Numbered from the stretch's first letter, positions 18,266 to 42,960 are shown. The stretch: 64,000 bases of DNA from an uncultured candidatus Porisulfidus sp. (GCA_963668445.1 OY764335.1:532297-596296); one strand, 5' to 3'. Made by a program: numbers and translations. Notes: generated from the sequence alone by a model not told the origin.

Positions 18266-18580
18266 ATGGACATGCAGCAGCGCATCACAGACAAGCTGAC
18301 GGCGGAACTCGCGCCGACGCACCTTGAAATCGAGGACGAGAGCCCCATGCACAACGTTCCGGTTGGGGCGCAATCGCATTTCAAGGTTACGGTCGTCGCG
18401 CCCGAATTTGCCGAGAAATCCCTCGTGGAACGGCACCGGCGCGTGAATCGGATTTTGGCCGAAGAATTGGCGGGCCAAGTGCACGCGCTGGCACTGCATA
18501 CGCTCAGCGAGGCGGAATGGGATGCGGCCCCGGAGGTGCCGGACAGCCCTCCATGCCGAGGCGGTGGCGCAAAAGCCTAA
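18266..18580 (+). CDS. BolA-family protein.
   Basis: MDMQQRITDKLTAELAPTHLEIEDESPMHNVPVGAQSHFKVTVVAPEFAEKSLVERHRRVNRILAEELAGQVHALALHTLSEAEW follows the BolA pattern. Confidence 0.6.
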   Translation: MDMQQRITDKLTAELAPTHLEIEDESPMHNVPVGAQSHFKVTVVAPEFAEKSLVERHRRVNRILAEELAGQVHALALHTLSEAEWDAAPEVPDSPPCRGGGAKA

Positions 18581-18849
18581 ACGCCGACTTGGCGGTATCC
18601 CTGCGTTGGCTCCAGCACTTCAATATCGCAGACGGCGCCGGGTTCGAGCGCGAACCAGTCGCCGCCTTGCAGGTCGACCGCCGCTTGCTCCGCCATGTGG
18701 ATGCGGAGGCGGCCTTCAAGCAGATAGTATTCTTCGGGAACCACCACGGTTCGCCATGTCCGGCCGGGCTCGGCCTGCCAGTCCGGCCAGTCTTCTATCG
18801 CCCAGACTTCCAGTTTGCCTGGCGGCACACGTTTTTCGTAGCGGAGCAT
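18577..18849 (-). CDS. Small cupin-domain protein.
   Basis: ...WRTVVVPEEYYLLEGRLRIHMAEQAAVDLQGGDWFALEPGAVCDIEV is a cupin beta-barrel signature. Confidence 0.45.
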   Translation of the reverse strand: MLRYEKRVPPGKLEVWAIEDWPDWQAEPGRTWRTVVVPEEYYLLEGRLRIHMAEQAAVDLQGGDWFALEPGAVCDIEVLEPTQGYRQVGV

Positions 18850-19079
18850 GGGCGCATTATAGGTTTCACGGCATTAGGCCGGGCCTTTATTTGGTTCGGA
18901 CAGCGTATGCCTGGAAGAAGCGATCTTGCTGAGACGTCATGGCGCGATGGGCTCTTCCATATCCATAGTATACGAATAATCTATATTTGCAAAAATGTAT
19001 AGAAAATTCTATTTTTTATGCATATCATTCGGGTGGTTGGATGTTATTTAATATAAATATATGTTAAGTATAATATTTA

Positions 19080-20239
19080 ATGATTTCCAAAGAGATTCGG
19101 CATAAGTTGAATCAAGAGAAAATCTCCAAGAGAAAAAGGAGGCATATGTATAGAAAAATCTCAAAACTATTGCGCAGGTTCAACAACATATTGGAACAAA
19201 GGCAGGCGTCGGCCAATCGGGCTTTGGGCGAAGTCAAAGGCCGGGCTGCCAGCATCCCCAATCAGGATATTCTGATTGATACGTTGGTATTGCAGGAAGC
19301 GTGTTCCAGTTCTGAAATCGAAAACATTGTGACCAGACAAGATGAATTATTTCGGGCGGATAGCGGACCTCAGGTTTCGGATTCTCCGGAAGCCAAAGCA
19401 GTCTTGCGCTACCGAGTGGCTTTCAAAGAAGGGTACCAACTTCTGCAAAAGCATGGAAACATCACGAATGAGACGCTAATCACAATGTACCGCCGGATTA
19501 AACTTGCGGATGACAGATTTCGCAAGAAGCCTGTTTATATCGGCAATCCTGCAATGCAGGAGATCATCTGCACGCCGCCCAAAGATCCTGCGGAGATTCA
19601 AGAATTGATGAACGGTCTTGAACGCTTTATCAATGACGATGCCATGAGTGTGCTGGACCCATTAATAAAAATGGCTCTCATCCATTACCAGTTCGAAAGC
19701 ATTCACCCGTTCTCGGATGGCAACGGGCGCGTCGGACGCATCCTCAATATGCTATACCTCACGAAATCGAAGTTGCTTGACAATCCCATTTTGTATCCGA
19801 GCCGAATGATTGCGCAGACCAAAGAACGGTACTACCGGCTCTTCACCGAAGTGCGGGAGCAGGAGGCGTGGCATGAATGGGTGGCCTACATGCTGGGCAT
19901 CGTCGAGCAGTCCGCGCACTCTTCGCTGCATATGGTCTCGCGCATTCGCGAGTTGATGGCCGAATACGAAAATCGAATTCGCGGGCAATTTGGATCCTAC
20001 TCGCAGGATTTGCTCAATAATCTGTTTCGCCACCCCTATTCGCGCGTGGCGCATCTGAACATGACCTCGGAGTCGCGAGGCTGACCGCGACTCGTTATCT
20101 GGATGCGCTGGCAGATGCAGGACTTCTGGAAAAGCGTCGCGTGGGCCGGAGCAACTACTACATCAATCTGCCTCTGGTCGAGATTTTCACGGAAATCTCG
20201 CATCGCTCGGATCCGGGCCAATTCATGCGAATCACGTGA
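19080..20239 (+). pseudogene. fic: Fic/DOC-family protein, class II, with a Fic_N domain. The gene is frameshifted near 20055-20085 and its C-terminal winged-helix domain continues in the +2 frame to 20239.
   Basis: Fic motif HPFSDGNGRVGR. The Fic_N region is IDTLVLQEACSSSEIENIVTRQDELF, which includes an inhibitory (S/T)xxxE(G/N) motif. Frame 0 stops at 20084. Frame +2 encodes LTATRYLDALADAGLLEKRRVGRSNYYINLPLVEIFTEI, the typical Fic C-terminal wHTH. The gene lies in a lower-GC islet. An alternative start is the ATG at 19146. Confidence 0.6.
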
Positions 20240-20284
20240 TGTTTGGAGACAGTGCCATAGAGTTCAAAACCTATGCCATTCGCC

Positions 20285-20665
20285 TCAGTGCACGGCTTCG
20301 GCAAGCAGCGCCTGTTCCATTTGCTGTTCCGAAACCGGGAGATCCAAAGTCGCGTGGAATTCGTGCCAGTCTTCGAGCCGCTTGAAATGCGCACGGTGCG
20401 CGGGCTCCATCATGGCGACGGTGCGGATTCCAGAGTGCTTCTGAATCGCTCCGATCATGGATTCCAAGCTGCTGGTGCGGTCGCGGAAGTCGGATTGGTA
20501 GTTGAACTCGCAGACGATGACATCGGGCGGCTGCCGTCGAATGGCGGCCAGAGCCTTGCGCATTGAGGCGCACACCTCGACCGAGAAGCCCAGCCGGCGG
20601 TACAGCGGCGTAAAATCGGGATACCCTCCCAGTTCGACGATGGCCAGCAGGCGGCGTTCGCTCAT
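20285..20665 (-). CDS. Hypothetical protein with a degenerate CheY-like (pseudo-receiver) fold.
   Basis: MSERRLLAIVELGGYPDFTPLYRRLGFSVEVCASMRKALAAIRRQPPDVIVCEFNYQ resembles a receiver domain but lacks the conserved DD and phospho-Asp residues. Its start overlaps the upstream Nudix stop (ATGA). Confidence 0.4.
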   Translation of the reverse strand: MSERRLLAIVELGGYPDFTPLYRRLGFSVEVCASMRKALAAIRRQPPDVIVCEFNYQSDFRDRTSSLESMIGAIQKHSGIRTVAMMEPAHRAHFKRLEDWHEFHATLDLPVSEQQMEQALLAEAVH

Positions 20666-29884: not shown

Positions 29885-32800
29885 TCAGAACATCAGTTCG
29901 ATTTTCAGATGGATGCTCAAGCCATTTGCCTCGTTGCTGGCGGCATGTTCGCCGAACACATCCGCGCGCCATTGCGCCATGGCGCCTGTCTCGCGCCCGA
30001 ACCGCACACCCAATCGCATTTTCGAGAGGTCGCTGCTGTGTTCCGCCTTGCCAAACCACTCGATCGGCCGCCTCAGCCACGGCGACCACATGCCGTATCC
30101 GACTTCCACTCCCATGGCTGCGGATTCATTCGGTGCTGATCGATCAGCCAGATCGGCGGCGTTCTCCTCCCACATCGTGGACGAGCTGTCGGTTGGCGCG
30201 CCCCATCGCGGGGACAGCATCAGGGACAGCCCGCGACCGTCCGCGTCTGGATTTTTCTTCAGCGTCACACTCACGCCCCGTTCTTCGTAGTCGCTCTCGG
30301 AATGTGCTGCCAGCCATCGCCCTTGTACATCCAGTGCCCAGCCGTCGACCACACTTTCGAAATACATGCCGCCGGCCAATTCCAGCCCGACTCCTTCGGA
30401 CCCGTTGCCACCATCGTAGCGGGCAAACGCCTGCGCGTACGGATTCGTGAAGTTGCCAGCCTCGTCCTCGATTGTCCGGGAATATTCCATTCCGGCACGG
30501 ACCTGATGCGCATTCGCTGTCAGGTCGTCAATCTCCAGAATCTCGCCATCGGCTTCCAGCTGGACGTATCCGGCATCGGCCATCAGTGCCCAGCGATGGT
30601 CCTTCCGCTCCGATTCCCCGAGTTCTCGGCGCAAGCCCACCGAAGCCATCTGCATCGATAGGTCTCTGTGCTCGGAATCCGCGCTGTCCATGCCGCTACG
30701 CAAGCTCTCCAATTCGATATCCCCCTCGCCTGCGCCCAGCATCATCCAAACCCCTACACCATCTCCCAAGTCCACATGGGCGTAAGGATGCACACTGGTC
30801 AGTTTCATCTCCATCGTGCCCGACCCGTTTAGACCTTGCTCGCCGAAAGAATAATCCGAATGCGCCCGACGATGCGATACCGCAACTCCGGCGATCCATT
30901 GTTTCTGAATGCGGGCATCAACGCCTACGTAGAACGAGCGCATGTCGCTTTCGTAATGGCCATTGCCATTGATTTCACCGGAGCTTTCCGTGTAGTCGCC
31001 CTGACCCCAGACGCTCCATTGCGCATGCGACGCTTCACTGCCCGCATTGAGGGAGAAGTCAAAAGTGCTTTCCAACAACCATTCGGTTGTGCTGATGCGA
31101 GAGCCCTCGTCCGTTACCGAGCCTGCTTTGAACCTTTCGATAACATCTAACGCGGCTGGCTGCGTCAAGGTTCGACGGTCGGATTCCGATGTGTCTGGCT
31201 CCAGTCCGGCCATACGAATCACGTCGTCGGGCGGCTTCGCAAACCTCCAATTTAGCACTTGCTGCGTACTTGCCATCATGCTGCCTGCGATTTGGCTCAA
31301 GGAGGCTTCCAAGACTGCCTTTTCCTCAATGGTATCTGTTTGCACCGCGATGGTAAAGGCGGCGGCGGCACTGTTGCCGTCGGCGTCGGTGGCGGTGTAG
31401 GTGTAGCCGGTGGCGGCCTGGGTGCCGCTGGGGGTGCCGGACAGGGTGCGGGTGGCGGCGTCGAAGCTCAGCCCGGGGGGCAGCGCCGGGGTGCCGCTGG
31501 TGCGCGCCAGCGCGTAGCTGAGCGCGCCGTTGCCGCCGCTGGCCAGCGGCAACGCCAAGTCCGTGATTCTGCGGCCTCGTGCATACACCTGGTCGGCAAT
31601 TGTGTCGTTCAAGGTTGGAGGGCCCAAGGGGGGGCTCTCTATAGATTCCTGCACCATGATGGTGAAGGTGGCGGTGGCGGCGTCGCCGTCGGCGTCGGTG
31701 GCGGTGTAGGTGTAGCCGGTGGCGGCCTGGGTGCCGCTGGGGGTGCCGGACAGGGTGCGGGTGGCGGCGTCGAAGCTCAGCCCGGGGGGCAGCGCCGGGG
31801 TGCCGCTGGTGCGCGCCAGCGCGTAGCTGAGCGCGCCGTTGCCGCCGGTCGCGGCCGGCAGCACCAGATCGGTGATCGGGCGGCCCTCGGAGTAGGCCTG
31901 GTCGGACGGCGCGGTCACGGCGGGCTGGCTGTTGGACTCGACCGCGAGGCTGAAGGTCGCCGAGTCGGTCTCGCCGTCGGCGTCGGTGACCGCGTACTTC
32001 AGGCTGGCGGTGGCGGCGCTGCCCGGCGTGGTGCCGGACAGGGTGCGGGTGGCGGCGGCGAACGACAGCCAGGCGGGCAGCGCGGTGCCGTCTTCCTTGG
32101 TCAGCGCGTAGCTCAGCGGGGCGTTGCCGCCGGTGGCGGCCGGCAGCTGGTGCGAGACGCTGCGCCCGGTGCCGTAGGTGAGGCCGGCCTGGGACGGCAG
32201 GTCCGGGGCGCTGTTCGCGGCCACCGCGATGGTGAAGGTGGCGGTGGCGGCGTCGCCGTCGGCGTCGGTGGCGGTGTAGGTGTAGCCGGTGGCGGCCTGG
32301 GTGCCGCTGGGGGTGCCGGACAGGGTGCGGGTGGCGGCGTCGAAGCTCAGCCCGGGGGGCAGCGCCGGGGTGCCGCTGGTGCGCGCCAGCGCGTAGCTGA
32401 GCGCGCCGTTGCCGCCGGTCGCGGCCGGCAGCACCAGATCGGTGATCGGGCGGCCCTCGGAGTAGGCCTGGTCGGACGGCGCGGTCACGGCGGGCTGGCT
32501 GTTGGACTCGACCGCGAGGCTGAAGGTCGCCGAGTCGGTCTCGCCGTCGGCGTCGGTGACCGCGTACTTCAGGCTGGCGGTGGCGGCGCTGCCCGGCGTG
32601 GTGCCGGACAGGGTGCGGGTGGCGGCGGCGAACGACAGCCAGGCGGGCAGCGCGGTGCCGTCTTCCTTGGTCAGCGCGTAGCTCAGCGGGGCGTTGCCGC
32701 CGGTGGCGGCCGGCAGCTGGTGCGAGACGCTGCGCCCGGTGCCGTAGGTGAGGCCGGCCTGGGACGGCAGGTCCGGGGCGCTGTTCGCGGCCACCGCGAT

Positions 32801-35800
32801 GGTGAAGGTGGCGGTGGCGGCGTCGCCGTCGGCGTCGGTGGCGGTGTAGGTGTAGCCGGTGGCGGCCTGGGTGCCGCTGGGGGTGCCGGACAGGGTGCGG
32901 GTGGCGGCGTCGAAGCTCAGCCCGGGGGGCAGCGCCGGGGTGCCGCTGGTGCGCGCCAGCGCGTAGCTGAGCGCGCCGTTGCCGCCGGTCGCGGCCGGCA
33001 GCACCAGATCGGTGATCGGGCGGCCCTCGGAGTAGGCCTGGTCGGACGGCGCGGTCACGGCGGGCTGGCTGTTGGACTCGACCGCGAGGCTGAAGGTCGC
33101 CGAGTCGGTCTCGCCGTCGGCGTCGGTGACCGCGTACTTCAGGCTGGCGGTGGCGGCGCTGCCCGGCGTGGTGCCGGACAGGGTGCGGGTGGCGGCGGCG
33201 AACGACAGCCAGGCGGGCAGCGCGGTGCCGTCTTCCTTGGTCAGCGCGTAGCTCAGCGGGGCGTTGCCGCCGGTGGCGGCCGGCAGCTGGTGCGAGACGC
33301 TGCGCCCGGTGCCGTAGGTGAGGCCGGCCTGGGACGGCAGGTCCGGGGCGCTGTTCGCGGCCACCGCGATGGTGAAGGTGGCGGTGGCGGCGTCGCCGTC
33401 GGCGTCGGTGGCGGTGTAGGTGTAGCCGGTGGCGGCCTGGGTGCCGCTGGGGGTGCCGGACAGGGTGCGGGTGGCGGCGTCGAAGCTCAGCCCGGGGGGC
33501 AGCGCCGGGGTGCCGCTGGTGCGCGCCAGCGCGTAGCTGAGCGCGCCGTTGCCGCCGGTCGCGGCCGGCAGCACCAGATCGGTGATCGGGCGGCCCTCGG
33601 AGTAGGCCTGGTCGGACGGCGCGGTCACGGCGGGCTGGCTGTTGGACTCGACCGCGAGGCTGAAGGTCGCCGAGTCGGTCTCGCCGTCGGCGTCGGTGAC
33701 CGCGTACTTCAGGCTGGCGGTGGCGGCGCTGCCCGGCGTGGTGCCGGACAGGGTGCGGGTGGCGGCGGCGAACGACAGCCAGGCGGGCAGCGCGGTGCCG
33801 TCTTCCTTGGTCAGCGCGTAGCTCAGCGGGGCGTTGCCGCCGGTGGCGGCCGGCAGCTGGTGCGAGACGCTGCGCCCGGTGCCGTAGGTGAGGCCGGCCT
33901 GGGACGGCAGGTCCGGGGCGCTGTTCGCGGCCACCGCGATGGTGAAGGTGGCGGTGGCGGCGTCGCCGTCGGCGTCGGTGGCGGTGTAGGTGTAGCCGGT
34001 GGCGGCCTGGGTGCCGCTGGGGGTGCCGGACAGGGTGCGGGTGGCGGCGTCGAAGCTCAGCCCGGGGGGCAGCGCCGGGGTGCCGCTGGTGCGCGCCAGC
34101 GCGTAGCTGAGCGCGCCGTTGCCGCCGGTCGCGGCCGGCAGCACCAGATCGGTGATCGGGCGGCCCTCGGAGTAGGCCTGGTCGGACGGCGCGGTCACGG
34201 CGGGCTGGCTGTTGGACTCGACCGCGAGGCTGAAGGTCGCCGAGTCGGTCTCGCCGTCGGCGTCGGTGACCGCGTACTTCAGGCTGGCGGTGGCGGCGCT
34301 GCCCGGCGTGGTGCCGGACAGGGTGCGGGTGGCGGCGGCGAACGACAGCCAGGCGGGCAGCGCGGTGCCGTCTTCCTTGGTCAGCGCGTAGCTCAGCGGG
34401 GCGTTGCCGCCGGTGGCGGCCGGCAGCTGGTGCGAGACGCTGCGCCCGGTGCCGTAGGTGAGGCCGGCCTGGGACGGCAGGTCCGGGGCGCTGTTCGCGG
34501 CCACCGCGATGGTGAAGGTGGCGGTGGCGGCGTCGCCGTCGGCGTCGGTGGCGGTGTAGGTGTAGCCGGTGGCGGCCTGGGTGCCGCTGGGGGTGCCGGA
34601 CAGGGTGCGGGTGGCGGCGTCGAAGCTCAGCCCGGGGGGCAGCGCCGGGGTGCCGCTGGTGCGCGCCAGCGCGTAGCTGAGCGCGCCGTTGCCGCCGGTC
34701 GCGGCCGGCAGCACCAGATCGGTGATCGGGCGGCCCTCGGAGTAGGCCTGGTCGGACGGCGCGGTCACGGCGGGCTGGCTGTTGGACTCGACCGCGAGGC
34801 TGAAGGTCGCCGAGTCGGTCTCGCCGTCGGCGTCGGTGACCGCGTACTTCAGGCTGGCGGTGGCGGCGCTGCCCGGCGTGGTGCCGGACAGGGTGCGGGT
34901 GGCGGCGGCGAACGACAGCCAGGCGGGCAGCGCGGTGCCGTCTTCCTTGGTCAGCGCGTAGCTCAGCGGGGCGTTGCCGCCGGTGGCGGCCGGCAGCTGG
35001 TGCGAGACGCTGCGCCCGGTGCCGTAGGTGAGGCCGGCCTGGGACGGCAGGTCCGGGGCGCTGTTCGCGGCCACCGCGATGGTGAAGGTGGCGGTGGCGG
35101 CGTCGCCGTCGGCGTCGGTGGCGGTGTAGGTGTAGCCGGTGGCGGCCTGGGTGCCGCTGGGGGTGCCGGACAGGGTGCGGGTGGCGGCGTCGAAGCTCAG
35201 CCCGGGGGGCAGCGCCGGGGTGCCGCTGGTGCGCGCCAGCGCGTAGCTGAGCGCGCCGTTGCCGCCGGTCGCGGCCGGCAGCACCAGATCGGTGATCGGG
35301 CGGCCCTCGGAGTAGGCCTGGTCGGACGGCGCGGTCACGGCGGGCTGGCTGTTGGACTCGACCGCGAGGCTGAAGGTCGCCGAGTCGGTCTCGCCGTCGG
35401 CGTCGGTGACCGCGTACTTCAGGCTGGCGGTGGCGGCGCTGCCCGGCGTGGTGCCGGACAGGGTGCGGGTGGCGGCGGCGAACGACAGCCAGGCGGGCAG
35501 CGCGGTGCCGTCTTCCTTGGTCAGCGCGTAGCTCAGCGGGGCGTTGCCGCCGGTGGCGGCCGGCAGCTGGTGCGAGACGCTGCGCCCGGTGCCGTAGGTG
35601 AGGCCGGCCTGGGACGGCAGGTCCGGGGCGCTGTTCGCGGCCACCGCGATGGTGAAGGTGGCGGTGGCGGCGTCGCCGTCGGCGTCGGTGGCGGTGTAGG
35701 TGTAGCCGGTGGCGGCCTGGGTGCCGCTGGGGGTGCCGGACAGGGTGCGGGTGGCGGCGTCGAAGCTCAGCCCGGGGGGCAGCGCCGGGGTGCCGCTGGT

Positions 35801-38800
35801 GCGCGCCAGCGCGTAGCTGAGCGCGCCGTTGCCGCCGGTCGCGGCCGGCAGCACCAGATCGGTGATCGGGCGGCCCTCGGAGTAGGCCTGGTCGGACGGC
35901 GCGGTCACGGCGGGCTGGCTGTTGGACTCGACCGCGAGGCTGAAGGTCGCCGAGTCGGTCTCGCCGTCGGCGTCGGTGACCGCGTACTTCAGGCTGGCGG
36001 TGGCGGCGCTGCCCGGCGTGGTGCCGGACAGGGTGCGGGTGGCGGCGGCGAACGACAGCCAGGCGGGCAGCGCGGTGCCGTCTTCCTTGGTCAGCGCGTA
36101 GCTCAGCGGGGCGTTGCCGCCGGTGGCGGCCGGCAGCTGGTGCGAGACGCTGCGCCCGGTGCCGTAGGTGAGGCCGGCCTGGGACGGCAGGTCCGGGGCG
36201 CTGTTCGCGGCCACCGCGATGGTGAAGGTGGCGGTGGCGGCGTCGCCGTCGGCGTCGGTGGCGGTGTAGGTGTAGCCGGTGGCGGCCTGGGTGCCGCTGG
36301 GGGTGCCGGACAGGGTGCGGGTGGCGGCGTCGAAGCTCAGCCCGGGGGGCAGCGCCGGGGTGCCGCTGGTGCGCGCCAGCGCGTAGCTGAGCGCGCCGTT
36401 GCCGCCGGTCGCGGCCGGCAGCACCAGATCGGTGATCGGGCGGCCCTCGGAGTAGGCCTGGTCGGACGGCGCGGTCACGGCGGGCTGGCTGTTGGACTCG
36501 ACCGCGAGGCTGAAGGTCGCCGAGTCGGTCTCGCCGTCGGCGTCGGTGACCGCGTACTTCAGGCTGGCGGTGGCGGCGCTGCCCGGCGTGGTGCCGGACA
36601 GGGTGCGGGTGGCGGCGGCGAACGACAGCCAGGCGGGCAGCGCGGTGCCGTCTTCCTTGGTCAGCGCGTAGCTCAGCGGGGCGTTGCCGCCGGTGGCGGC
36701 CGGCAGCTGGTGCGAGACGCTGCGCCCGGTGCCGTAGGTGAGGCCGGCCTGGGACGGCAGGTCCGGGGCGCTGTTCGCGGCCACCGCGATGGTGAAGGTG
36801 GCGGTGGCGGCGTCGCCGTCGGCGTCGGTGGCGGTGTAGGTGTAGCCGGTGGCGGCCTGGGTGCCGCTGGGGGTGCCGGACAGGGTGCGGGTGGCGGCGT
36901 CGAAGCTCAGCCCGGGGGGCAGCGCCGGGGTGCCGCTGGTGCGCGCCAGCGCGTAGCTGAGCGCGCCGTTGCCGCCGGTCGCGGCCGGCAGCACCAGATC
37001 GGTGATCGGGCGGCCCTCGGAGTAGGCCTGGTCGGACGGCGCGGTCACGGCGGGCTGGCTGTTGGACTCGACCGCGAGGCTGAAGGTCGCCGAGTCGGTC
37101 TCGCCGTCGGCGTCGGTGACCGCGTACTTCAGGCTGGCGGTGGCGGCGCTGCCCGGCGTGGTGCCGGACAGGGTGCGGGTGGCGGCGGCGAACGACAGCC
37201 AGGCGGGCAGCGCGGTGCCGTCTTCCTTGGTCAGCGCGTAGCTCAGCGGGGCGTTGCCGCCGGTGGCGGCCGGCAGCTGGTGCGAGACGCTGCGCCCGGT
37301 GCCGTAGGTGAGGCCGGCCTGGGACGGCAGGTCCGGGGCGCTGTTCGCGGCCACCGCGATGGTGAAGGTGGCGGTGGCGGCGTCGCCGTCGGCGTCGGTG
37401 GCGGTGTAGGTGTAGCCGGTGGCGGCCTGGGTGCCGCTGGGGGTGCCGGACAGGGTGCGGGTGGCGGCGTCGAAGCTCAGCCCGGGGGGCAGCGCCGGGG
37501 TGCCGCTGGTGCGCGCCAGCGCGTAGCTGAGCGCGCCGTTGCCGCCGGTCGCGGCCGGCAGCACCAGATCGGTGATCGGGCGGCCCTCGGAGTAGGCCTG
37601 GTCGGACGGCGCGGTCACGGCGGGCTGGCTGTTGGACTCGACCGCGAGGCTGAAGGTCGCCGAGTCGGTCTCGCCGTCGGCGTCGGTGACCGCGTACTTC
37701 AGGCTGGCGGTGGCGGCGCTGCCCGGCGTGGTGCCGGACAGGGTGCGGGTGGCGGCGGCGAACGACAGCCAGGCGGGCAGCGCGGTGCCGTCTTCCTTGG
37801 TCAGCGCGTAGCTCAGCGGGGCGTTGCCGCCGGTGGCGGCCGGCAGCTGGTGCGAGACGCTGCGCCCGGTGCCGTAGGTGAGGCCGGCCTGGGACGGCAG
37901 GTCCGGGGCGCTGTTCGCGGCCACCGCGATGGTGAAGGTGGCGGTGGCGGCGTCGCCGTCGGCGTCGGTGGCGGTGTAGGTGTAGCCGGTGGCGGCCTGG
38001 GTGCCGCTGGGGGTGCCGGACAGGGTGCGGGTGGCGGCGTCGAAGCTCAGCCCGGGGGGCAGCGCCGGGGTGCCGCTGGTGCGCGCCAGCGCGTAGCTGA
38101 GCGCGCCGTTGCCGCCGGTCGCGGCCGGCAGCACCAGATCGGTGATCGGGCGGCCCTCGGAGTAGGCCTGGTCGGACGGCGCGGTCACGGCGGGCTGGCT
38201 GTTGGACTCGACCGCGAGGCTGAAGGTCGCCGAGTCGGTCTCGCCGTCGGCGTCGGTGACCGCGTACTTCAGGCTGGCGGTGGCGGCGCTGCCCGGCGTG
38301 GTGCCGGACAGGGTGCGGGTGGCGGCGGCGAACGACAGCCAGGCGGGCAGCGCGGTGCCGTCTTCCTTGGTCAGCGCGTAGCTCAGCGGGGCGTTGCCGC
38401 CGGTGGCGGCCGGCAGCTGGTGCGAGACGCTGCGCCCGGTGCCGTAGGTGAGGCCGGCCTGGGACGGCAGGTCCGGGGCGCTGTTCGCGGCCACCGCGAT
38501 GGTGAAGGTGGCGGTGGCGGCGTCGCCGTCGGCGTCGGTGGCGGTGTAGGTGTAGCCGGTGGCGGCCTGGGTGCCGCTGGGGGTGCCGGACAGGGTGCGG
38601 GTGGCGGCGTCGAAGCTCAGCCCGGGGGGCAGCGCCGGGGTGCCGCTGGTGCGCGCCAGCGCGTAGCTGAGCGCGCCGTTGCCGCCGGTCGCGGCCGGCA
38701 GCACCAGATCGGTGATCGGGCGGCCCTCGGAGTAGGCCTGGTCGGACGGCGCGGTCACGGCGGGCTGGCTGTTGGACTCGACCGCGAGGCTGAAGGTCGC

Positions 38801-41800
38801 CGAGTCGGTCTCGCCGTCGGCGTCGGTGACCGCGTACTTCAGGCTGGCGGTGGCGGCGCTGCCCGGCGTGGTGCCGGACAGGGTGCGGGTGGCGGCGGCG
38901 AACGACAGCCAGGCGGGCAGCGCGGTGCCGTCTTCCTTGGTCAGCGCGTAGCTCAGCGGGGCGTTGCCGCCGGTGGCGGCCGGCAGCTGGTGCGAGACGC
39001 TGCGCCCGGTGCCGTAGGTGAGGCCGGCCTGGGACGGCAGGTCCGGGGCGCTGTTCGCGGCCACCGCGATGGTGAAGGTGGCGGTGGCGGCGTCGCCGTC
39101 GGCGTCGGTGGCGGTGTAGGTGTAGCCGGTGGCGGCCTGGGTGCCGCTGGGGGTGCCGGACAGGGTGCGGGTGGCGGCGTCGAAGCTCAGCCCGGGGGGC
39201 AGCGCCGGGGTGCCGCTGGTGCGCGCCAGCGCGTAGCTGAGCGCGCCGTTGCCGCCGGTCGCGGCCGGCAGCACCAGATCGGTGATCGGGCGGCCCTCGG
39301 AGTAGGCCTGGTCGGACGGCGCGGTCACGGCGGGCTGGCTGTTGGACTCGACCGCGAGGCTGAAGGTCGCCGAGTCGGTCTCGCCGTCGGCGTCGGTGAC
39401 CGCGTACTTCAGGCTGGCGGTGGCGGCGCTGCCCGGCGTGGTGCCGGACAGGGTGCGGGTGGCGGCGGCGAACGACAGCCAGGCGGGCAGCGCGGTGCCG
39501 TCTTCCTTGGTCAGCGCGTAGCTCAGCGGGGCGTTGCCGCCGGTGGCGGCCGGCAGCTGGTGCGAGACGCTGCGCCCGGTGCCGTAGGTGAGGCCGGCCT
39601 GGGACGGCAGGTCCGGGGCGCTGTTCGCGGCCACCGCGATGGTGAAGGTGGCGGTGGCGGCGTCGCCGTCGGCGTCGGTGGCGGTGTAGGTGTAGCCGGT
39701 GGCGGCCTGGGTGCCGCTGGGGGTGCCGGACAGGGTGCGGGTGGCGGCGTCGAAGCTCAGCCCGGGGGGCAGCGCCGGGGTGCCGCTGGTGCGCGCCAGC
39801 GCGTAGCTGAGCGCGCCGTTGCCGCCGGTCGCGGCCGGCAGCACCAGATCGGTGATCGGGCGGCCCTCGGAGTAGGCCTGGTCGGACGGCGCGGTCACGG
39901 CGGGCTGGCTGTTGGACTCGACCGCGAGGCTGAAGGTCGCCGAGTCGGTCTCGCCGTCGGCGTCGGTGACCGCGTACTTCAGGCTGGCGGTGGCGGCGCT
40001 GCCCGGCGTGGTGCCGGACAGGGTGCGGGTGGCGGCGGCGAACGACAGCCAGGCGGGCAGCGCGGTGCCGTCTTCCTTGGTCAGCGCGTAGCTCAGCGGG
40101 GCGTTGCCGCCGGTGGCGGCCGGCAGCTGGTGCGAGACGCTGCGCCCGGTGCCGTAGGTGAGGCCGGCCTGGGACGGCAGGTCCGGGGCGCTGTTCGCGG
40201 CCACCGCGATGGTGAAGGTGGCGGTGGCGGCGTCGCCGTCGGCGTCGGTGGCGGTGTAGGTGTAGCCGGTGGCGGCCTGGGTGCCGCTGGGGGTGCCGGA
40301 CAGGGTGCGGGTGGCGGCGTCGAAGCTCAGCCCGGGGGGCAGCGCCGGGGTGCCGCTGGTGCGCGCCAGCGCGTAGCTGAGCGCGCCGTTGCCGCCGGTC
40401 GCGGCCGGCAGCACCAGATCGGTGATCGGGCGGCCCTCGGAGTAGGCCTGGTCGGACGGCGCGGTCACGGCGGGCTGGCTGTTGGACTCGACCGCGAGGC
40501 TGAAGGTCGCCGAGTCGGTCTCGCCGTCGGCGTCGGTGACCGCGTACTTCAGGCTGGCGGTGGCGGCGCTGCCCGGCGTGGTGCCGGACAGGGTGCGGGT
40601 GGCGGCGGCGAACGACAGCCAGGCGGGCAGCGCGGTGCCGTCTTCCTTGGTCAGCGCGTAGCTCAGCGGGGCGTTGCCGCCGGTGGCGGCCGGCAGCTGG
40701 TGCGAGACGCTGCGCCCGGTGCCGTAGGTGAGGCCGGCCTGGGACGGCAGGTCCGGGGCGCTGTTCGCGGCCACCGCGATGGTGAAGGTGGCGGTGGCGG
40801 CGTCGCCGTCGGCGTCGGTGGCGGTGTAGGTGTAGCCGGTGGCGGCCTGGGTGCCGCTGGGGGTGCCGGACAGGGTGCGGGTGGCGGCGTCGAAGCTCAG
40901 CCCGGGGGGCAGCGCCGGGGTGCCGCTGGTGCGCGCCAGCGCGTAGCTGAGCGCGCCGTTGCCGCCGGTCGCGGCCGGCAGCACCAGATCGGTGATCGGG
41001 CGGCCCTCGGAGTAGGCCTGGTCGGACGGCGCGGTCACGGCGGGCTGGCTGTTGGACTCGACCGCGAGGCTGAAGGTCGCCGAGTCGGTCTCGCCGTCGG
41101 CGTCGGTGACCGCGTACTTCAGGCTGGCGGTGGCGGCGCTGCCCGGCGTGGTGCCGGACAGGGTGCGGGTGGCGGCGGCGAACGACAGCCAGGCGGGCAG
41201 CGCGGTGCCGTCTTCCTTGGTCAGCGCGTAGCTCAGCGGGGCGTTGCCGCCGGTGGCGGCCGGCAGCTGGTGCGAGACGCTGCGCCCGGTGCCGTAGGTG
41301 AGGCCGGCCTGGGACGGCAGGTCCGGGGTTAGCCTCAGTGGCGTTGCTTTTGCTGTATCTGAAGGGGGGCTGCCACCGGTCGAATTCACCGCACGAATCT
41401 GAAAGGAGTATTCCACCCCGGTGGTCAAGTTGCCAACCGTGTGGCTTGTGGTATTTGCTCCGCTTTTGTTGATATTTCCCCAGATCTCGAATACGCTATC
41501 CGTTTCGGTCTTTTTCCGTATTTGGTATGTCGTAATGTTCGTGTCGGACGGATCCGTCCATTCGAGCAAGACCTGCTGATCGCCTGCAGTGGCCGCGAAG
41601 CCGCTCGGTTTCGCCGGCCTCGGCCTCGGTGTCACCGACACCTCGTCCGATTCTGTGCCATTGCCCACTGGGTTGACCGCTCTGATCTTGAACGTGTATT
41701 GGGTTCCGCTGGTCAATCCGGTGACCGTGTGGCTTGTGGTGGTCGCGCTGCTGGAGCCGATATCCGTCCACCCGCCATAATTGTTCGAGCCTTCTTTTTG

Positions 41801-42895
41801 CCGGTACTGGTATTTCGAAATGCTTGCGTTGGACGGATTGGTCCATCCCAAGAACACCCGAGTTCCATCAAGTGCTTGTGCGGTGAAATTGCTTGGTTTG
41901 CCCGGTGCCGTCAGATTCGCCATTACTGTAGATGAAGAACCAGCACCCGCTGGATTCACTGCACGGAGTTGAAACGTATATTCCGTCTCATTGGTCAATC
42001 CGGTGATCGTGTGGCTTGTGGTGGTTGCGCTGCTGGAGCCGATATCCGTCCATACGCCATAATTGTTTGAGCCTTCTTTTTGCCGGTACTGGTATTTCGA
42101 AATGGTTGTGTCCGACGGATCCGTCCATTTCAATGCCACGCTCTGATTGCCTACTGTCGCGGCAAGGTTGGTCGGGGCCGCTGGCGGAGGCGTTGCCGTT
42201 GCTGTTGCTTCATCCGATTCCAGCCCATCGCCGACTGAGTTGACCGCTCTGATCTTGAACGTGTATTGGGTTCCGTTGGTCAATCCGGTGACCGTGTGGG
42301 TCGTGGTGGTCGCGCTGCTGGAGCCGATATCCGTCCATCCGCCGTAATTGTTCGAGCCTTCCTTTTGCCGGTACTGGTATTTCGAAATGGTTGTGTCCGA
42401 CGGATCCGTCCATTTCAAGTTCATGCTTTTGTCAGCCGGCGTCACGGTGAAGTCGGTTGGTTTGTCCGGCGATGCCGACATGGAAACCGAGTTGGAGCCT
42501 AGGGAGAGTCCGCAGGATGATGATGTATGTTTAAGCCAATTGCTGTCTTTTGTGAACGATGACAGGTTCATGGTGTTGGTGCCGATCTTGACTTTCACGT
42601 CAGCGGTTTTCAGGTTGTTCGGATCCTTATTGAACTGGATCCAGCATTGGCCAGAAGATTGGAAAAAGTCTTTTATTTCGTATGTGGTCCCCCGGAAATC
42701 AAAATCGTCATCGCTTAAACTCCCATATGTGATGATGAGTGTGCTGTATCCTAGAGAATTGCCGAAACCCTGTGCTGCATTTAACGTGGCACTCCAGAAG
42801 AGTCCTGAATTGGCCGCGTATGTCGGTCGCGCTTCTCCTGTCAGTAGCACTGCAAGCAGCAATAAGAGATGTACTGCCTTGGGTTCCTTGCACAT
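29885..42895 (-). CDS. Giant (about 4336 aa) secreted repeat adhesin. Order: signal peptide, FN3-like modules, 17 tandem copies of a 190-aa double He_PIG/'putative Ig' unit, then a C-terminal autotransporter-like beta-barrel.
   Basis: Signal peptide MCKEPKAVHLLLLLAVLLTGEARPTYA/AN. Repeated motif LPxGLSFDAATRTLSGTP. The C-terminal 400 aa have alternating hydrophobic beta-strand patterning (AQWSVWGQGDY...), are Gly/aromatic-rich and end ...HLKIELMF. The start was moved from the ORF-track 43090 to the ATG at 42895, ahead of the signal peptide. Confidence 0.85.
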   Translation of the reverse strand: MCKEPKAVHLLLLLAVLLTGEARPTYAANSGLFWSATLNAAQGFGNSLGYSTLIITYGSLSDDDFDFRGTTYEIKDFFQSSGQCWIQFNKDPNNLKTADVKVKIGTNTMNLSSFTKDSNWLKHTSSSCGLSLGSNSVSMSASPDKPTDFTVTPADKSMNLKWTDPSDTTISKYQYRQKEGSNNYGGWTDIGSSSATTTTHTVTGLTNGTQYTFKIRAVNSVGDGLESDEATATATPPPAAPTNLAATVGNQSVALKWTDPSDTTISKYQYRQKEGSNNYGVWTDIGSSSATTTSHTITGLTNETEYTFQLRAVNPAGAGSSSTVMANLTAPGKPSNFTAQALDGTRVFLGWTNPSNASISKYQYRQKEGSNNYGGWTDIGSSSATTTSHTVTGLTSGTQYTFKIRAVNPVGNGTESDEVSVTPRPRPAKPSGFAATAGDQQVLLEWTDPSDTNITTYQIRKKTETDSVFEIWGNINKSGANTTSHTVGNLTTGVEYSFQIRAVNSTGGSPPSDTAKATPLRLTPDLPSQAGLTYGTGRSVSHQLPAATGGNAPLSYALTKEDGTALPAWLSFAAATRTLSGTTPGSAATASLKYAVTDADGETDSATFSLAVESNSQPAVTAPSDQAYSEGRPITDLVLPAATGGNGALSYALARTSGTPALPPGLSFDAATRTLSGTPSGTQAATGYTYTATDADGDAATATFTIAVAANSAPDLPSQAGLTYGTGRSVSHQLPAATGGNAPLSYALTKEDGTALPAWLSFAAATRTLSGTTPGSAATASLKYAVTDADGETDSATFSLAVESNSQPAVTAPSDQAYSEGRPITDLVLPAATGGNGALSYALARTSGTPALPPGLSFDAATRTLSGTPSGTQAATGYTYTATDADGDAATATFTIAVAANSAPDLPSQAGLTYGTGRSVSHQLPAATGGNAPLSYALTKEDGTALPAWLSFAAATRTLSGTTPGSAATASLKYAVTDADGETDSATFSLAVESNSQPAVTAPSDQAYSEGRPITDLVLPAATGGNGALSYALARTSGTPALPPGLSFDAATRTLSGTPSGTQAATGYTYTATDADGDAATATFTIAVAANSAPDLPSQAGLTYGTGRSVSHQLPAATGGNAPLSYALTKEDGTALPAWLSFAAATRTLSGTTPGSAATASLKYAVTDADGETDSATFSLAVESNSQPAVTAPSDQAYSEGRPITDLVLPAATGGNGALSYALARTSGTPALPPGLSFDAATRTLSGTPSGTQAATGYTYTATDADGDAATATFTIAVAANSAPDLPSQAGLTYGTGRSVSHQLPAATGGNAPLSYALTKEDGTALPAWLSFAAATRTLSGTTPGSAATASLKYAVTDADGETDSATFSLAVESNSQPAVTAPSDQAYSEGRPITDLVLPAATGGNGALSYALARTSGTPALPPGLSFDAATRTLSGTPSGTQAATGYTYTATDADGDAATATFTIAVAANSAPDLPSQAGLTYGTGRSVSHQLPAATGGNAPLSYALTKEDGTALPAWLSFAAATRTLSGTTPGSAATASLKYAVTDADGETDSATFSLAVESNSQPAVTAPSDQAYSEGRPITDLVLPAATGGNGALSYALARTSGTPALPPGLSFDAATRTLSGTPSGTQAATGYTYTATDADGDAATATFTIAVAANSAPDLPSQAGLTYGTGRSVSHQLPAATGGNAPLSYALTKEDGTALPAWLSFAAATRTLSGTTPGSAATASLKYAVTDADGETDSATFSLAVESNSQPAVTAPSDQAYSEGRPITDLVLPAATGGNGALSYALARTSGTPALPPGLSFDAATRTLSGTPSGTQAATGYTYTATDADGDAATATFTIAVAANSAPDLPSQAGLTYGTGRSVSHQLPAATGGNAPLSYALTKEDGTALPAWLSFAAATRTLSGTTPGSAATASLKYAVTDADGETDSATFSLAVESNSQPAVTAPSDQAYSEGRPITDLVLPAATGGNGALSYALARTSGTPALPPGLSFDAATRTLSGTPSGTQAATGYTYTATDADGDAATATFTIAVAANSAPDLPSQAGLTYGTGRSVSHQLPAATGGNAPLSYALTKEDGTALPAWLSFAAATRTLSGTTPGSAATASLKYAVTDADGETDSATFSLAVESNSQPAVTAPSDQAYSEGRPITDLVLPAATGGNGALSYALARTSGTPALPPGLSFDAATRTLSGTPSGTQAATGYTYTATDADGDAATATFTIAVAANSAPDLPSQAGLTYGTGRSVSHQLPAATGGNAPLSYALTKEDGTALPAWLSFAAATRTLSGTTPGSAATASLKYAVTDADGETDSATFSLAVESNSQPAVTAPSDQAYSEGRPITDLVLPAATGGNGALSYALARTSGTPALPPGLSFDAATRTLSGTPSGTQAATGYTYTATDADGDAATATFTIAVAANSAPDLPSQAGLTYGTGRSVSHQLPAATGGNAPLSYALTKEDGTALPAWLSFAAATRTLSGTTPGSAATASLKYAVTDADGETDSATFSLAVESNSQPAVTAPSDQAYSEGRPITDLVLPAATGGNGALSYALARTSGTPALPPGLSFDAATRTLSGTPSGTQAATGYTYTATDADGDAATATFTIAVAANSAPDLPSQAGLTYGTGRSVSHQLPAATGGNAPLSYALTKEDGTALPAWLSFAAATRTLSGTTPGSAATASLKYAVTDADGETDSATFSLAVESNSQPAVTAPSDQAYSEGRPITDLVLPAATGGNGALSYALARTSGTPALPPGLSFDAATRTLSGTPSGTQAATGYTYTATDADGDAATATFTIAVAANSAPDLPSQAGLTYGTGRSVSHQLPAATGGNAPLSYALTKEDGTALPAWLSFAAATRTLSGTTPGSAATASLKYAVTDADGETDSATFSLAVESNSQPAVTAPSDQAYSEGRPITDLVLPAATGGNGALSYALARTSGTPALPPGLSFDAATRTLSGTPSGTQAATGYTYTATDADGDAATATFTIAVAANSAPDLPSQAGLTYGTGRSVSHQLPAATGGNAPLSYALTKEDGTALPAWLSFAAATRTLSGTTPGSAATASLKYAVTDADGETDSATFSLAVESNSQPAVTAPSDQAYSEGRPITDLVLPAATGGNGALSYALARTSGTPALPPGLSFDAATRTLSGTPSGTQAATGYTYTATDADGDAATATFTIAVAANSAPDLPSQAGLTYGTGRSVSHQLPAATGGNAPLSYALTKEDGTALPAWLSFAAATRTLSGTTPGSAATASLKYAVTDADGETDSATFSLAVESNSQPAVTAPSDQAYSEGRPITDLVLPAATGGNGALSYALARTSGTPALPPGLSFDAATRTLSGTPSGTQAATGYTYTATDADGDAATATFTIAVAANSAPDLPSQAGLTYGTGRSVSHQLPAATGGNAPLSYALTKEDGTALPAWLSFAAATRTLSGTTPGSAATASLKYAVTDADGETDSATFSLAVESNSQPAVTAPSDQAYSEGRPITDLVLPAATGGNGALSYALARTSGTPALPPGLSFDAATRTLSGTPSGTQAATGYTYTATDADGDAATATFTIAVAANSAPDLPSQAGLTYGTGRSVSHQLPAATGGNAPLSYALTKEDGTALPAWLSFAAATRTLSGTTPGSAATASLKYAVTDADGETDSATFSLAVESNSQPAVTAPSDQAYSEGRPITDLVLPAATGGNGALSYALARTSGTPALPPGLSFDAATRTLSGTPSGTQAATGYTYTATDADGDAATATFTIMVQESIESPPLGPPTLNDTIADQVYARGRRITDLALPLASGGNGALSYALARTSGTPALPPGLSFDAATRTLSGTPSGTQAATGYTYTATDADGNSAAAAFTIAVQTDTIEEKAVLEASLSQIAGSMMASTQQVLNWRFAKPPDDVIRMAGLEPDTSESDRRTLTQPAALDVIERFKAGSVTDEGSRISTTEWLLESTFDFSLNAGSEASHAQWSVWGQGDYTESSGEINGNGHYESDMRSFYVGVDARIQKQWIAGVAVSHRRAHSDYSFGEQGLNGSGTMEMKLTSVHPYAHVDLGDGVGVWMMLGAGEGDIELESLRSGMDSADSEHRDLSMQMASVGLRRELGESERKDHRWALMADAGYVQLEADGEILEIDDLTANAHQVRAGMEYSRTIEDEAGNFTNPYAQAFARYDGGNGSEGVGLELAGGMYFESVVDGWALDVQGRWLAAHSESDYEERGVSVTLKKNPDADGRGLSLMLSPRWGAPTDSSSTMWEENAADLADRSAPNESAAMGVEVGYGMWSPWLRRPIEWFGKAEHSSDLSKMRLGVRFGRETGAMAQWRADVFGEHAASNEANGLSIHLKIELMF
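31640..41335. repeat. Seventeen nucleotide-identical tandem repeats of 570 bp inside the giant adhesin gene. A divergent partial copy lies at each end.
   Basis: Sequence blocks 570 nt apart are character-for-character identical; for example the lines at 32221 and 33361 continue identically across the whole array. Each unit encodes DLPSQAGLTYGTGRSV...TFTIAVAANSAP. Confidence 0.9.
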
Positions 42896-42936
42896 GTCCT
42901 GCAACCATTTCTCAATGGCCTTACGACAGGGCCGAT

Positions 42937-42960
42937 GGGGGGGGGGGGGGGGGGGGGGGG
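42937..42960. repeat. Homopolymeric G/C tract, 24 nt, 41 nt upstream of the giant adhesin start codon. Putative phase-variation switch.
   Basis: 24 consecutive G on the plus strand, counted directly. It lies between the adhesin ATG (42895) and the AT-rich upstream region. Confidence 0.8.

What the first reader, a model, noticed from the sequence alone, without database searches (positions are those of the whole stretch)
19080..20239. A class-II Fic gene in a lower-GC islet has a frameshift that separates its C-terminal winged helix.
The gene has the Fic motif HPFSDGNGRVGR and an N-terminal inhibitory-helix motif (SSSEIEN). The reading frame stops at 20084. The typical C-terminal wHTH (LTATRYLDALADAGLLEKRRVGRSNYYINLPL) continues in the +2 frame to 20239, implying a 1-nt indel around 20055-20085. 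The gene and its roughly 230-bp upstream region are markedly AT-rich relative to the flanks. It is therefore probably a horizontally acquired toxin-type or AMPylator gene. It is now either decaying, or the frameshift is a sequencing error.
Basis: seen in the sequence. Interest (0 to 1): 0.5.

Follow-up and report, generated by a model that had tools for sequence, protein, structure and literature searches.

The report
Broken SoFic-type Fic gene islet
A foreign SoFic-type AMP-transferase (toxin / anti-phage) gene lies between two conserved genes of a sponge-symbiont-like sulfur oxidiser; it is broken by a one-base deletion and lacks its normal N-terminal end, so it is most likely an ordinary decaying pseudogene.

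Summary
ORF 19146-20084 (longest form from 19080) encodes Fic_N plus a Fic core with intact HPFSDGNGRVGR and inhibitory SSEIEN motifs. The rest of the SoFic-like winged helix is open in the +2 frame to 20239. A profile of 131 homologues matches frame 0 at positions 24-314 and the +2 frame at positions 315-362. So exactly one nucleotide is missing, between 20057 and 20058 (CTG^AA CAT, where homologues have a Gln codon).

The gene belongs to the SoFic family: PADLOC SoFic E 1e-103, and a fold match to S. oneidensis SoFic with TM 0.84. Published work describes this family as class-II AMPylases of EF-Tu and as abortive-infection defence toxins.

Thirteen syntenic Candidatus Porisulfidus genomes keep the flanking genes and have no Fic there. 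The closest of them has a 31-bp spacer at that position. GC is 51% in the gene and 25% upstream, against 64% for the window. Horizontal gain is well supported.

New here: the first 23 family positions, including the conserved dimerisation helix, are not encoded in any frame. The gene also departs at 9 of 123 near-invariant positions.

Published truncations shorter than this one abolish EcSofic toxicity. Most likely this is a dead relic. A sequencing error cannot be excluded without reads. Interest is low.

The parts
18850..18958 (.). Spacer of host-like composition (about 55% GC) between the cupin start codon (18849, minus strand) and the AT-rich block. Its origin is unknown, and it marks the outer left limit of the inserted segment.
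   Evidence: GC 0.556. No similarity to the relatives' intergenic DNA or to their TPR gene.
18959..19171 (+). AT-rich block (25.4% GC), the presumed promoter and 5' leader of the Fic gene. It carries one sigma-70-like site at 19000-19028 and AGGAGG at 19137-19142. It overlaps the first 9 codons of the ORF.
   Evidence: Maximum-likelihood change-points at 18959 and 19171. Promoter-like site. Analogy: SoFic binds the 29%-GC 100 bp upstream of its own start (bioRxiv 10.64898/2026.07.09.737422).
19146..19205 (+). The first 20 codons (MYRKISKLLRRFNNILEQRQ) are not homologous to the family N-terminus. The conserved L-E-T-V-x-V-L-K-A-L-A dimerisation segment is replaced by R-F-N-N-I-L-E-Q-R-Q-A.
   Evidence: Every HMM or BLAST match starts at residue 18-24. 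The N-terminal sub-profile finds nothing in any frame of 18950-19215. Column table.
19146..20084 (+). Frame-0 ORF of 312 aa (the longest form starts at 19080). It contains Fic_N (19206-19439), the inhibitory motif SSEIEN (19308-19325), the Fic core (19467-19760) with HPFSDGNGRVGR (19704-19739) and the first half of the SoFic-like C-terminal domain (19953-20060). Eight out-of-frame codons (NMTSESRG) and a stop at 20082-20084 follow.
   Evidence: Identical to database protein P0001. AlphaFold2 model pLDDT 81.8, best PDB match SoFic at TM 0.84.
20057..20058 (+). Site of the one-nucleotide deletion. The window reads CAT CTG ^AA CAT GAC, where the closest homologues read CAC ATT CAG CAT GAA (H-I/V-Q-x-E/D). 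The first base of the Gln codon is missing.
20060..20239 (+). Second half of the winged helix-turn-helix, in the +2 frame (HDLGVARLTATRYLDALADAGLLEKRRVGRSNYYINLPLVEIFTEISH...), stop at 20237-20239. No start codon allows it to be expressed on its own: the first ATG/GTG/TTG in this frame would give only 32 aa.
   Evidence: Pfam SoFic-like_C positions 41-75, E 1e-08. Family HMM 315-362, E 2e-19. Frame read directly.
20240..20284 (.). A 45-bp spacer up to the stop codon of the convergent host gene p125 (20285-20662, minus strand). It marks the outer right limit of the inserted segment.

Best explanation
This is a single-gene insertion of a SoFic-family class-II Fic AMP-transferase, carried with its own AT-rich promoter region. 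It sits in a variable intergenic slot (p125 | cupin) of a small-genome, Candidatus Porisulfidus-like sulfur oxidiser. From published work on SoFic and EcSofic, an intact enzyme is a homodimer held by an N-terminal helix. It is auto-inhibited by the Glu of the SxxxE(G/N) helix. [quoted passage not shown] Its C-terminal wHTH packs on the AMPylase domain and binds the gene's own promoter. In this copy a one-nucleotide deletion at 20057/20058 ends the protein at the equivalent of EcSofic residue 312. That removes the recognition helix, the wing and helix alpha15. The N-terminal dimerisation segment is also unrecognisable. The gene is therefore most likely an inactivated, decaying relic of a toxic defence gene. 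What is shown: family membership, the frameshift position, absence of the gene from syntenic relatives, the foreign composition and the aberrant N-terminus. What is inferred: loss of toxicity and of DNA binding, that the frameshift is real rather than an assembly error, and the direction of the event (gain rather than loss).
For: Family: Pfam Fic_N, Fic and SoFic-like_C; PADLOC SoFic E 1.4e-103; PDB SoFic E 7e-68 and EcSofic 9vjc E 1e-67; fold TM 0.84 to 3zcn and 3eqx. Frameshift: contiguous HMM coordinates 314|315 across the two frames and a codon-level alignment. No slippery heptamer at the site (read). Foreign origin: 13 syntenic relatives keep cmoA-cmoB-rhodanese-nudix-p125-[slot]-cupin-bolA-aprA-aprB without Fic. 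The slot is a 31-bp spacer in the closest relative, L001. GC is 51% in the gene and 25% upstream against 63.6% for the window. The nearest protein in 5.8 billion is 59% identical. 1008 plasmid records carry family members. Decay: HMM positions 1-23 are absent in all frames. The residues equivalent to SoFic L28, L31 and K32 are N, E and Q, and the last column is K/R in 131 of 131 homologues. L28D, L31D and K32A each monomerise SoFic, and monomers neither AMPylate nor bind DNA. The gene departs at 9 of 123 columns that are at least 95% conserved, against a mean of 1.24 in homologues. EcSofic P290X and T350X truncations abolish toxicity (PMC12249575). Assembly quality: 9 of 9 neighbouring genes align full length to relatives, and a 13.2-kb ORF is uninterrupted.
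Against: No reads were available, so a one-base assembly error cannot be excluded. Both the catalytic and the inhibitory motifs are intact, and 312 codons remain open behind a Shine-Dalgarno sequence. The lesion is therefore recent or the product may still be made. The N-terminus of this family is its most variable part, and the nearest relative is only 59% identical, so a lineage-specific N-terminus is possible. The count of conserved-column deviations is biased, because the homologues define the consensus. For some related wHTH-Fic enzymes, monomerisation does not reduce AMPylation. No dN/dS test is possible without a close relative.
Confidence: 0.7

Rival explanations
1. The gene is intact and functional in the organism, and the missing base is a sequencing or assembly error. 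The acquired SoFic-type defence or toxin gene would then be a normal 364-aa protein.
For: A single one-nucleotide lesion accounts for the whole split. The catalytic and inhibitory motifs are intact. If the lost base was G or A, rather than the family-typical C, it would lie in a 2-3-nt homopolymer. Only one assembly carries the gene: cluster P0001 has one member.
Against: The surrounding sequence shows no other indel damage. Nine neighbouring genes are full length against relatives, and a 4401-codon ORF is open. The site is not a long homopolymer. Independent abnormalities remain even after repair: no recognisable N-terminal dimer helix and 9 changes at near-invariant positions.
Confidence: 0.15
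2. The truncated 312-aa protein is made and kept for a new role. One example would be a monomeric, wHTH-less Fic that no longer AMPylates but still de-AMPylates, or that binds EF-Tu without killing.
For: A long open frame with AGGAGG 3 nt before the ATG. The model folds with pLDDT 81.8 and pTM 0.83. The SoFic preprint reports constitutive deAMPylation, while AMPylation needs the dimer.
Against: The C-terminal 14 residues and the inhibitory-helix region are predicted with pLDDT below 50. The half of the wHTH that is left (beta1 only) normally packs on the AMPylase domain. The downstream wHTH sequence is still well preserved in the other frame, which suggests a recent break and not a long-kept truncated form. 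No other example of such a truncated form was found: 120 listed homologues are 338-385 aa and carry the C-terminal domain.
Confidence: 0.08
3. A full-length protein is made by programmed -1 ribosomal frameshifting or by transcriptional slippage at the junction.
For: The second frame is -1 relative to the first, and the joined product is exactly collinear with the family.
Against: There is no X XXY YYZ slippery heptamer and no homopolymer run at 20040-20084 (GTG GCG CAT CTG AAC ATG ACC). None of the intact homologues uses a frameshift.
Confidence: 0.02
4. The Fic gene was ancestral at this locus and was lost in all sampled relatives; it was not gained by this lineage.
For: The slot is variable. 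It holds a TPR gene in 10 relatives, is empty in L001, and p125 is also missing in L013.
Against: All 13 relatives lack it. Its composition is foreign: GC3 0.61 against 0.66-0.82 in five neighbouring genes, with a 25%-GC leader. It is oriented against the otherwise co-directional nudix-p125-cupin series. Its closest homologues sit in an unrelated context, lspA-Fic-cysG-ahpC.
Confidence: 0.05

Closest known systems
SoFic (SO_4266 / MloA) of Shewanella oneidensis, the class-II Fic AMP-transferase with a C-terminal wHTH (PDB 3eqx, 3zcn, 3zec, 9tc4)
   Same: The same domain order: N-terminal helix, alpha-inh SxxxE(G/N), Fic core HPFxDGNGRxxR, SoFic-like wHTH. About 40% identity, E 7e-68, and a fold match of TM 0.84. 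The region upstream of the gene is AT-rich, as in the SoFic promoter fragment that SoFic itself binds.
   Different: The wHTH is out of frame after beta1. The residues equivalent to L28, L31 and K32 of the dimer interface are N, E and Q. It scores 311 bits against NCBIfam NF046030, below the equivalog cut-off of 550. It is therefore a family member and not an orthologue.
EcSofic-AS1 of E. coli H397, the SoFic anti-phage abortive-infection toxin with a 47-aa antitoxin (PMC12249575; PDB 9vjc)
   Same: PADLOC SoFic model E 1e-103 over profile positions 27-359. E 1e-67 to 9vjc. It is a single toxin gene that sits apart from mobility genes.
   Different: No AS1-like gene is present. Only 45 bp separate the stop from the convergent host gene, and the 48-codon ORF at 20239-20385 is mostly antisense to conserved p125. 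The truncation point, at about EcSofic L312, lies between the published P290X and T350X constructs, both of which are non-toxic.
CccR of Yersinia pseudotuberculosis and other wHTH-Fic autoregulators
   Same: A Fic domain plus a wHTH that binds its own promoter, as cited in the SoFic preprint.
   Different: No direct comparison was made here. In that group, AMPylation is reported to be unaffected or enhanced by monomerisation. The functional inference from the N-terminal changes is therefore not universal.
FICD/HYPE and other class-II Fic enzymes
   Same: The N-terminal inhibitory helix and the Fic fold (fold matches with TM 0.55-0.6). The oligomeric state switches the enzyme between AMPylation and deAMPylation.
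   Different: Eukaryotic TPR-Fic architecture, no wHTH, and 16-21% identity.

Membership tests
Fic/Fido AMP-transferases | Fic core motif HxFx(D/E)GNGRxxR within a Fic fold | tested here: met
   HPFSDGNGRVGR at aa 187-198 (nt 19704-19739). Pfam PF02661 E 3e-17. Fold match to Fic structures.
Class-II Fic (Engel et al. 2012 classification, as used in PMC3667792) | Inhibitory motif (S/T)xxxE(G/N) on a helix N-terminal to the Fic core, in the same polypeptide | tested here: met
   S55-S-E-I-E59-N60 at nt 19308-19325, 127 residues upstream of the catalytic His. Pfam Fic_N E 1.5e-23. It aligns to SoFic SSEIEN with E73.
SoFic family (PADLOC SoFic / Pfam SoFic-like_C architecture) | Full-length match to the SoFic profile | tested here: met
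The ORF as it stands covers positions 27-314.
SoFic family (PADLOC SoFic / Pfam SoFic-like_C architecture) | C-terminal SoFic-like winged helix-turn-helix in frame with the Fic domain | tested here: not met
   PF21248 positions 1-37 are in frame 0 and positions 41-75 in the +2 frame. Family HMM positions 314 and 315 fall in different frames. The domain is encoded but not translatable as one protein.
SoFic family (PADLOC SoFic / Pfam SoFic-like_C architecture) | N-terminal dimerisation helix with a hydrophobic patch and a conserved Lys (SoFic L28, L31, K32; EcSofic R25, K29, I32) | tested here: not met
   The window has N14, E17 and Q18. The family columns are V/I, L/F and K/R (the last in 131 of 131). 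No frame of 18950-19215 matches the N-terminal sub-profile.
SoFic orthologue (NCBIfam NF046030 equivalog) | Score at or above the curated cut-off of 550 bits | tested here: not met
SoFic anti-phage defence / toxin-antitoxin system (EcSofic-AS1) | Small antitoxin gene (AS1, 47 aa) downstream of the toxin | tested here: inconclusive
   No AS1 sequence or profile was available. Only 45 bp follow the stop. The one small ORF (20239-20385) overlaps conserved p125 antisense and has no PADLOC hit. The close homologues L081-L083 show no shared small ORF downstream.
SoFic anti-phage defence / toxin-antitoxin system (EcSofic-AS1) | Toxicity, phage defence and EF-Tu AMPylation | not testable with these tools
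   These need expression and phage assays. Published truncations predict loss of function.
Genomic islet acquired by horizontal transfer | Absent from the same site in syntenic relatives, and atypical in composition | tested here: met
   13 of 13 syntenic loci lack it. GC is 51% in the gene and 25% upstream against 63.6% for the window. No flanking direct repeats, tRNA or integrase were found, so the insertion mechanism is unknown.

The most novel reading that the evidence does not exclude
The break is real, and the wHTH-less, non-dimerising 312-aa Fic is nevertheless expressed and retained by the symbiont as a detoxified enzyme. It might act as a constitutive EF-Tu de-AMPylase or as a decoy against related Fic toxins of phages or of co-resident bacteria. 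That would be a natural example of a defence toxin converted into an antidote by loss of its two regulatory modules.
Probability: 0.05. Interest if true: 0.45.

Novelty: new member of a known kind. Interest (0 to 1): 0.2.

Why it matters
The finding matters mainly for annotation. The 312-aa 'Fic family protein' called on the deposited assembly is a truncated SoFic-type toxin or defence gene. It should be flagged as a probable pseudogene, and defence-system counts for this genome should not include it as active. It is also a clean small example of how a reduced-genome sponge-symbiont-like sulfur oxidiser takes up a single defence gene into a variable intergenic slot and then disables it. It carries no new mechanism.

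Tried and rejected
1. Remnant of the relatives' TPR gene in the islet. tblastn and blastn of the L002 260-aa TPR protein and of the intergenic DNA against the window gave only chance hits, so there is no evidence that Fic replaced it.
2. Flanking direct repeats, tRNA or RNA families as insertion landmarks. None were found.
3. A second hidden frameshift that would restore the N-terminus. By eye the +2 frame reads NLKTIA, which resembles the family's DLETVP. However, an N-terminal sub-profile finds nothing in any frame, so this was rejected as chance.
4. An independent copy to check the frameshift. None exists above 52% identity in JGI metagenomes, above 36% in IMG/VR, or above 59% in the 5.8-billion-protein set. 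The look-up of P0001's contig returned nothing.
5. Operator motif of the closest homologues (TTTTGAGAAS arrays). It is not enriched in the window's leader.
6. AS1-like antitoxin. None could be identified.
The native 312-aa product was modelled instead.
8. My first guess that L218P sits next to an ATP-binding Tyr was wrong. The ATP-binding Tyr (EcSofic Y237) is in the conserved YY of ERYYRL, which is intact here.

Full report
OBSERVATION. On the + strand an ORF runs from ATG 19080 to TGA 20082-20084 (334 aa). An internal ATG at 19146 is preceded by AGGAGG. Pfam finds Fic_N (E 1.5e-23), Fic (E 3e-17) and positions 1-37 of the 76-position SoFic-like C-terminal domain in this ORF. Positions 41-75 of the same domain lie in the +2-frame stretch 20045-20236 (E 1e-08). 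The catalytic motif HPFSDGNGRVGR (19704-19739) and the inhibitory motif SSEIEN (19308-19325) are intact. In the six-frame translation of the whole 64-kb window, only the two segments 19074-20081 and 20021-20236 match the family.

WHERE THE LESION IS. I built a profile from 131 homologues of 340-400 aa, without the window sequence, and searched the three forward frames. Frame 0 matches profile positions 24-314 (E 2e-136). The +2 frame matches positions 315-362 (E 2e-19). The two matches abut without gap or overlap, so exactly one nucleotide is missing. Codon by codon, the three closest homologues read H-(I/V)-Q-x-(E/D)-L-G/E-V (for example CAC ATT CAG CAT GAA CTC GGG GTA). The window reads CAT CTG ^AA CAT GAC CTC GGA GTC. 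The first base of the Gln codon has been lost between 20057 and 20058. The frame-0 product therefore ends ...HPYSRVAHL + NMTSESRG*. The +2 frame has no ATG, GTG or TTG that could express the remaining wHTH on its own: the first would give only 32 aa (read). There is no slippery heptamer or homopolymer run at the junction. Programmed frameshifting is therefore not a credible reading.

WHAT THE GENE IS. After repair, the protein is 364 aa counted from ATG 19146, which is the family's length (362-372 aa).
- It matches the PADLOC SoFic model at E 1.4e-103 over profile positions 27-359 of 361.
- It matches the PDB chains of Shewanella oneidensis SoFic at E 7e-68 and of EcSofic (9vjc) at E 1e-67.
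- An AlphaFold2 model of the native 312-aa product (pLDDT 81.8) superposes on SoFic 3zcn and 3eqx with TM 0.84.
- It scores 311 bits against the NCBIfam SoFic equivalog model, whose cut-off is 550. It is therefore a family member and not an orthologue.

SoFic is the reference class-II Fic enzyme (PMC3667792). Published work reports the following. It dimerises through the N-terminal helix. [quoted passage not shown] AMPylation and binding to its own promoter require the dimer. The bound promoter fragment is the 29%-GC 100 bp upstream of the start (bioRxiv 10.64898/2026.07.09.737422). The E. coli homologue EcSofic is a toxic abortive-infection defence protein. Its toxicity is abolished by monomerising mutations and by C-terminal truncations P290X and T350X. 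A 47-aa downstream protein, AS1, counteracts it (PMC12249575). From memory only, and not checked here: SoFic was first listed as a defence system by Millman et al. 2022.

WHERE IT SITS. A scan of one genome per species with the neighbouring NUDIX protein returned 13 loci with 71-76% identity, largely labelled Candidatus Porisulfidus; the rest are labelled uncultured Chromatiales or Gammaproteobacteria MAGs. The chromosome-level records among them are 1.57-1.88 Mb. The source assembly itself was not among them. In most of them the gene order is the same: cmoA-cmoB-rhodanese-nudix-p125-[slot]-cupin-bolA-aprA-aprB. None has a Fic match. The slot varies among the relatives:
- In L001, the closest relative (AprA 92%), it is a 31-bp spacer.
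- In ten loci it holds a 260-aa TPR protein of native composition.
- In L013 p125 is missing as well.

In the window the slot is 1,435 bp long (18850-20284). It carries the Fic gene in the opposite orientation to the otherwise co-directional host genes.

The composition is foreign. The gene is 50.9% GC, with GC3 0.61 against 0.66-0.82 in five neighbouring genes. A 213-bp block at 18959-19171 is 25.4% GC. The window as a whole is 63.6% GC. It is the deepest GC trough in the window. The nearest protein in the 5.8-billion-sequence collection is 59% identical, apart from the 312-aa ORF called on the same assembly. Nothing closer exists in JGI metagenomes (52% at most) or IMG/VR (36% at most). Family members occur on 1008 plasmid records. 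Gain by horizontal transfer is therefore well supported. The mechanism of insertion is unknown: I found no flanking repeats, tRNA or recombinase.

SIGNS OF DECAY BEYOND THE FRAMESHIFT.
(a) Every search, by sequence or by profile, starts matching at residue 18-24 of the ORF. The family's first 23 profile positions have no counterpart. A sub-profile of the N-terminus finds nothing in any frame of 18950-19215. The family's conserved L-E-T-V-x-V-L-K-A-L-A segment is R-F-N-N-I-L-E-Q-R-Q-A here. The residues equivalent to SoFic L28, L31 and K32 are N14, E17 and Q18, and the last column is K or R in 131 of 131 homologues. Each of L28D, L31D and K32A monomerises SoFic. This non-homologous stretch coincides with the end of the AT-rich block. 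The authentic 5' end may therefore have been lost or overwritten.
(b) At 123 columns that are at least 95% conserved among the homologues, the window departs 9 times. The homologues average 1.24 departures and most have 0-2. This count is biased in favour of the homologues, because they define the consensus.
(c) One codon is missing in the conserved LPKLYSQ segment.

IS THE FRAMESHIFT REAL? This cannot be settled without reads. Three things argue against an assembly error. The nine neighbouring genes align full length to relatives. A 4401-codon repetitive ORF in the same window is uninterrupted. The site is not a long homopolymer. One thing leaves room for an error: only one assembly carries the gene.

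MECHANISTIC READING. The truncation point corresponds to EcSofic L312 (alignment). That lies after beta1 (Y306, R308) of the C-terminal domain. It lies before its three helices, the wing and alpha15, whose L352 and R351 dock on the AMPylase domain. The shorter deletion T350X already abolishes toxicity. By analogy, the product here should therefore be non-toxic and unable to bind DNA. The altered dimer helix points the same way. There is a caveat: in some related wHTH-Fic enzymes monomerisation does not reduce AMPylation. In the model of the native product, the last 14 residues and residues 58-65, next to the inhibitory motif, have pLDDT below 50. I conclude that this is a horizontally acquired SoFic-type toxin or defence gene that has been inactivated and is decaying (confidence about 0.7).

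The alternatives are:
- an assembly error in an intact gene (0.15);
- a retained truncated enzyme, for example one with deAMPylase activity only (0.08);
- programmed frameshifting (0.02);
- separately, on the question of origin, ancestral presence followed by loss in all relatives (0.05).

NOVELTY AND INTEREST. The family, its class, its target and its role in defence have all been published. Pseudogenes of toxic defence genes are commonplace. This is a new, damaged member of a known kind. Its value lies in annotation and as a tidy example of gain-then-loss in a small symbiont-like genome. Interest is 0.2.

Noticed in passing
window 29885-43090 (- strand); low-GC stretch 42451-43500: An uninterrupted 4401-aa ORF (GC3 0.90) with 35 He_PIG Ig-like domains plus fn3 domains, apparently a giant surface or adhesin-type protein. 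Its 5' end and upstream region form the second-deepest GC trough of the window (36.5%).
   Followed up: partly
window 18577-18849 / 20285-20662; L001 10935-10976; L002-L012 10977-11759; L013 10573-10593: The intergenic slot between p125 (a 125-aa protein with no Pfam or NCBIfam hit) and a EutQ-like cupin varies among Ca. Porisulfidus relatives. It is a 31-bp spacer in L001 and a 260-aa TPR protein in ten loci, and p125 itself is absent in L013. It behaves as a small hotspot for gene turnover next to aprBA-bolA.
   Followed up: partly
L081 5812-5996; L082 5899-5990; L083 5896-5987: The closest intact Fic homologues (59% identity, in an lspA-Fic-cysG-ahpC context) carry arrays of the motif TTTTGAGAAS, in both orientations, within 200 bp upstream of their start codons. 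L081 has 7 copies, a count that none of 200 shuffles reached. These are a candidate operator for their own wHTH. The window's leader lacks the array.
   Followed up: partly
window 18995-19010 and 19146-19161: A 16-nt direct repeat matching at 15 of 16 positions (ATGTATAGAAAATTCT / ATGTATAGAAAAATCT). The second copy begins with the likely Fic start codon, and the copies are 151 nt apart inside the AT-rich block. Possibly a trace of a duplication or rearrangement of the 5' end. Unexplained.
   Followed up: no
window 19120, 19156, 20180 (-), 20193: Four of the five AAATCTC heptamers in the 64-kb window lie in the islet. Two flank the Shine-Dalgarno sequence and ATG, 36 nt apart. Two form an inverted pair (GAGATTT-N6-AAATCTC) inside the wHTH-coding 3' end. 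TCTCAAAA at 19159-19166 is the reverse complement of the homologues' TTTTGAGA core.
   Followed up: no
window 20239-20385 (+): A 48-codon ORF whose ATG overlaps the +2-frame stop of the wHTH (TGATG). Its size is similar to the 47-aa AS1 antitoxin of EcSofic. About 100 nt of it are antisense to the conserved 3' end of host gene p125, and it has no PADLOC hit. Probably spurious.
   Followed up: partly
L081 6001-7119, L082 6001-7119, L083 6001-7119: The nearest homologues come from long metagenome contigs (39 kb to 2.0 Mb) of 58-64% GC with a shared chromosomal context. Their Fic genes also sit behind AT-richer leaders (37-49% GC). The host taxa were not identified.
   Followed up: no
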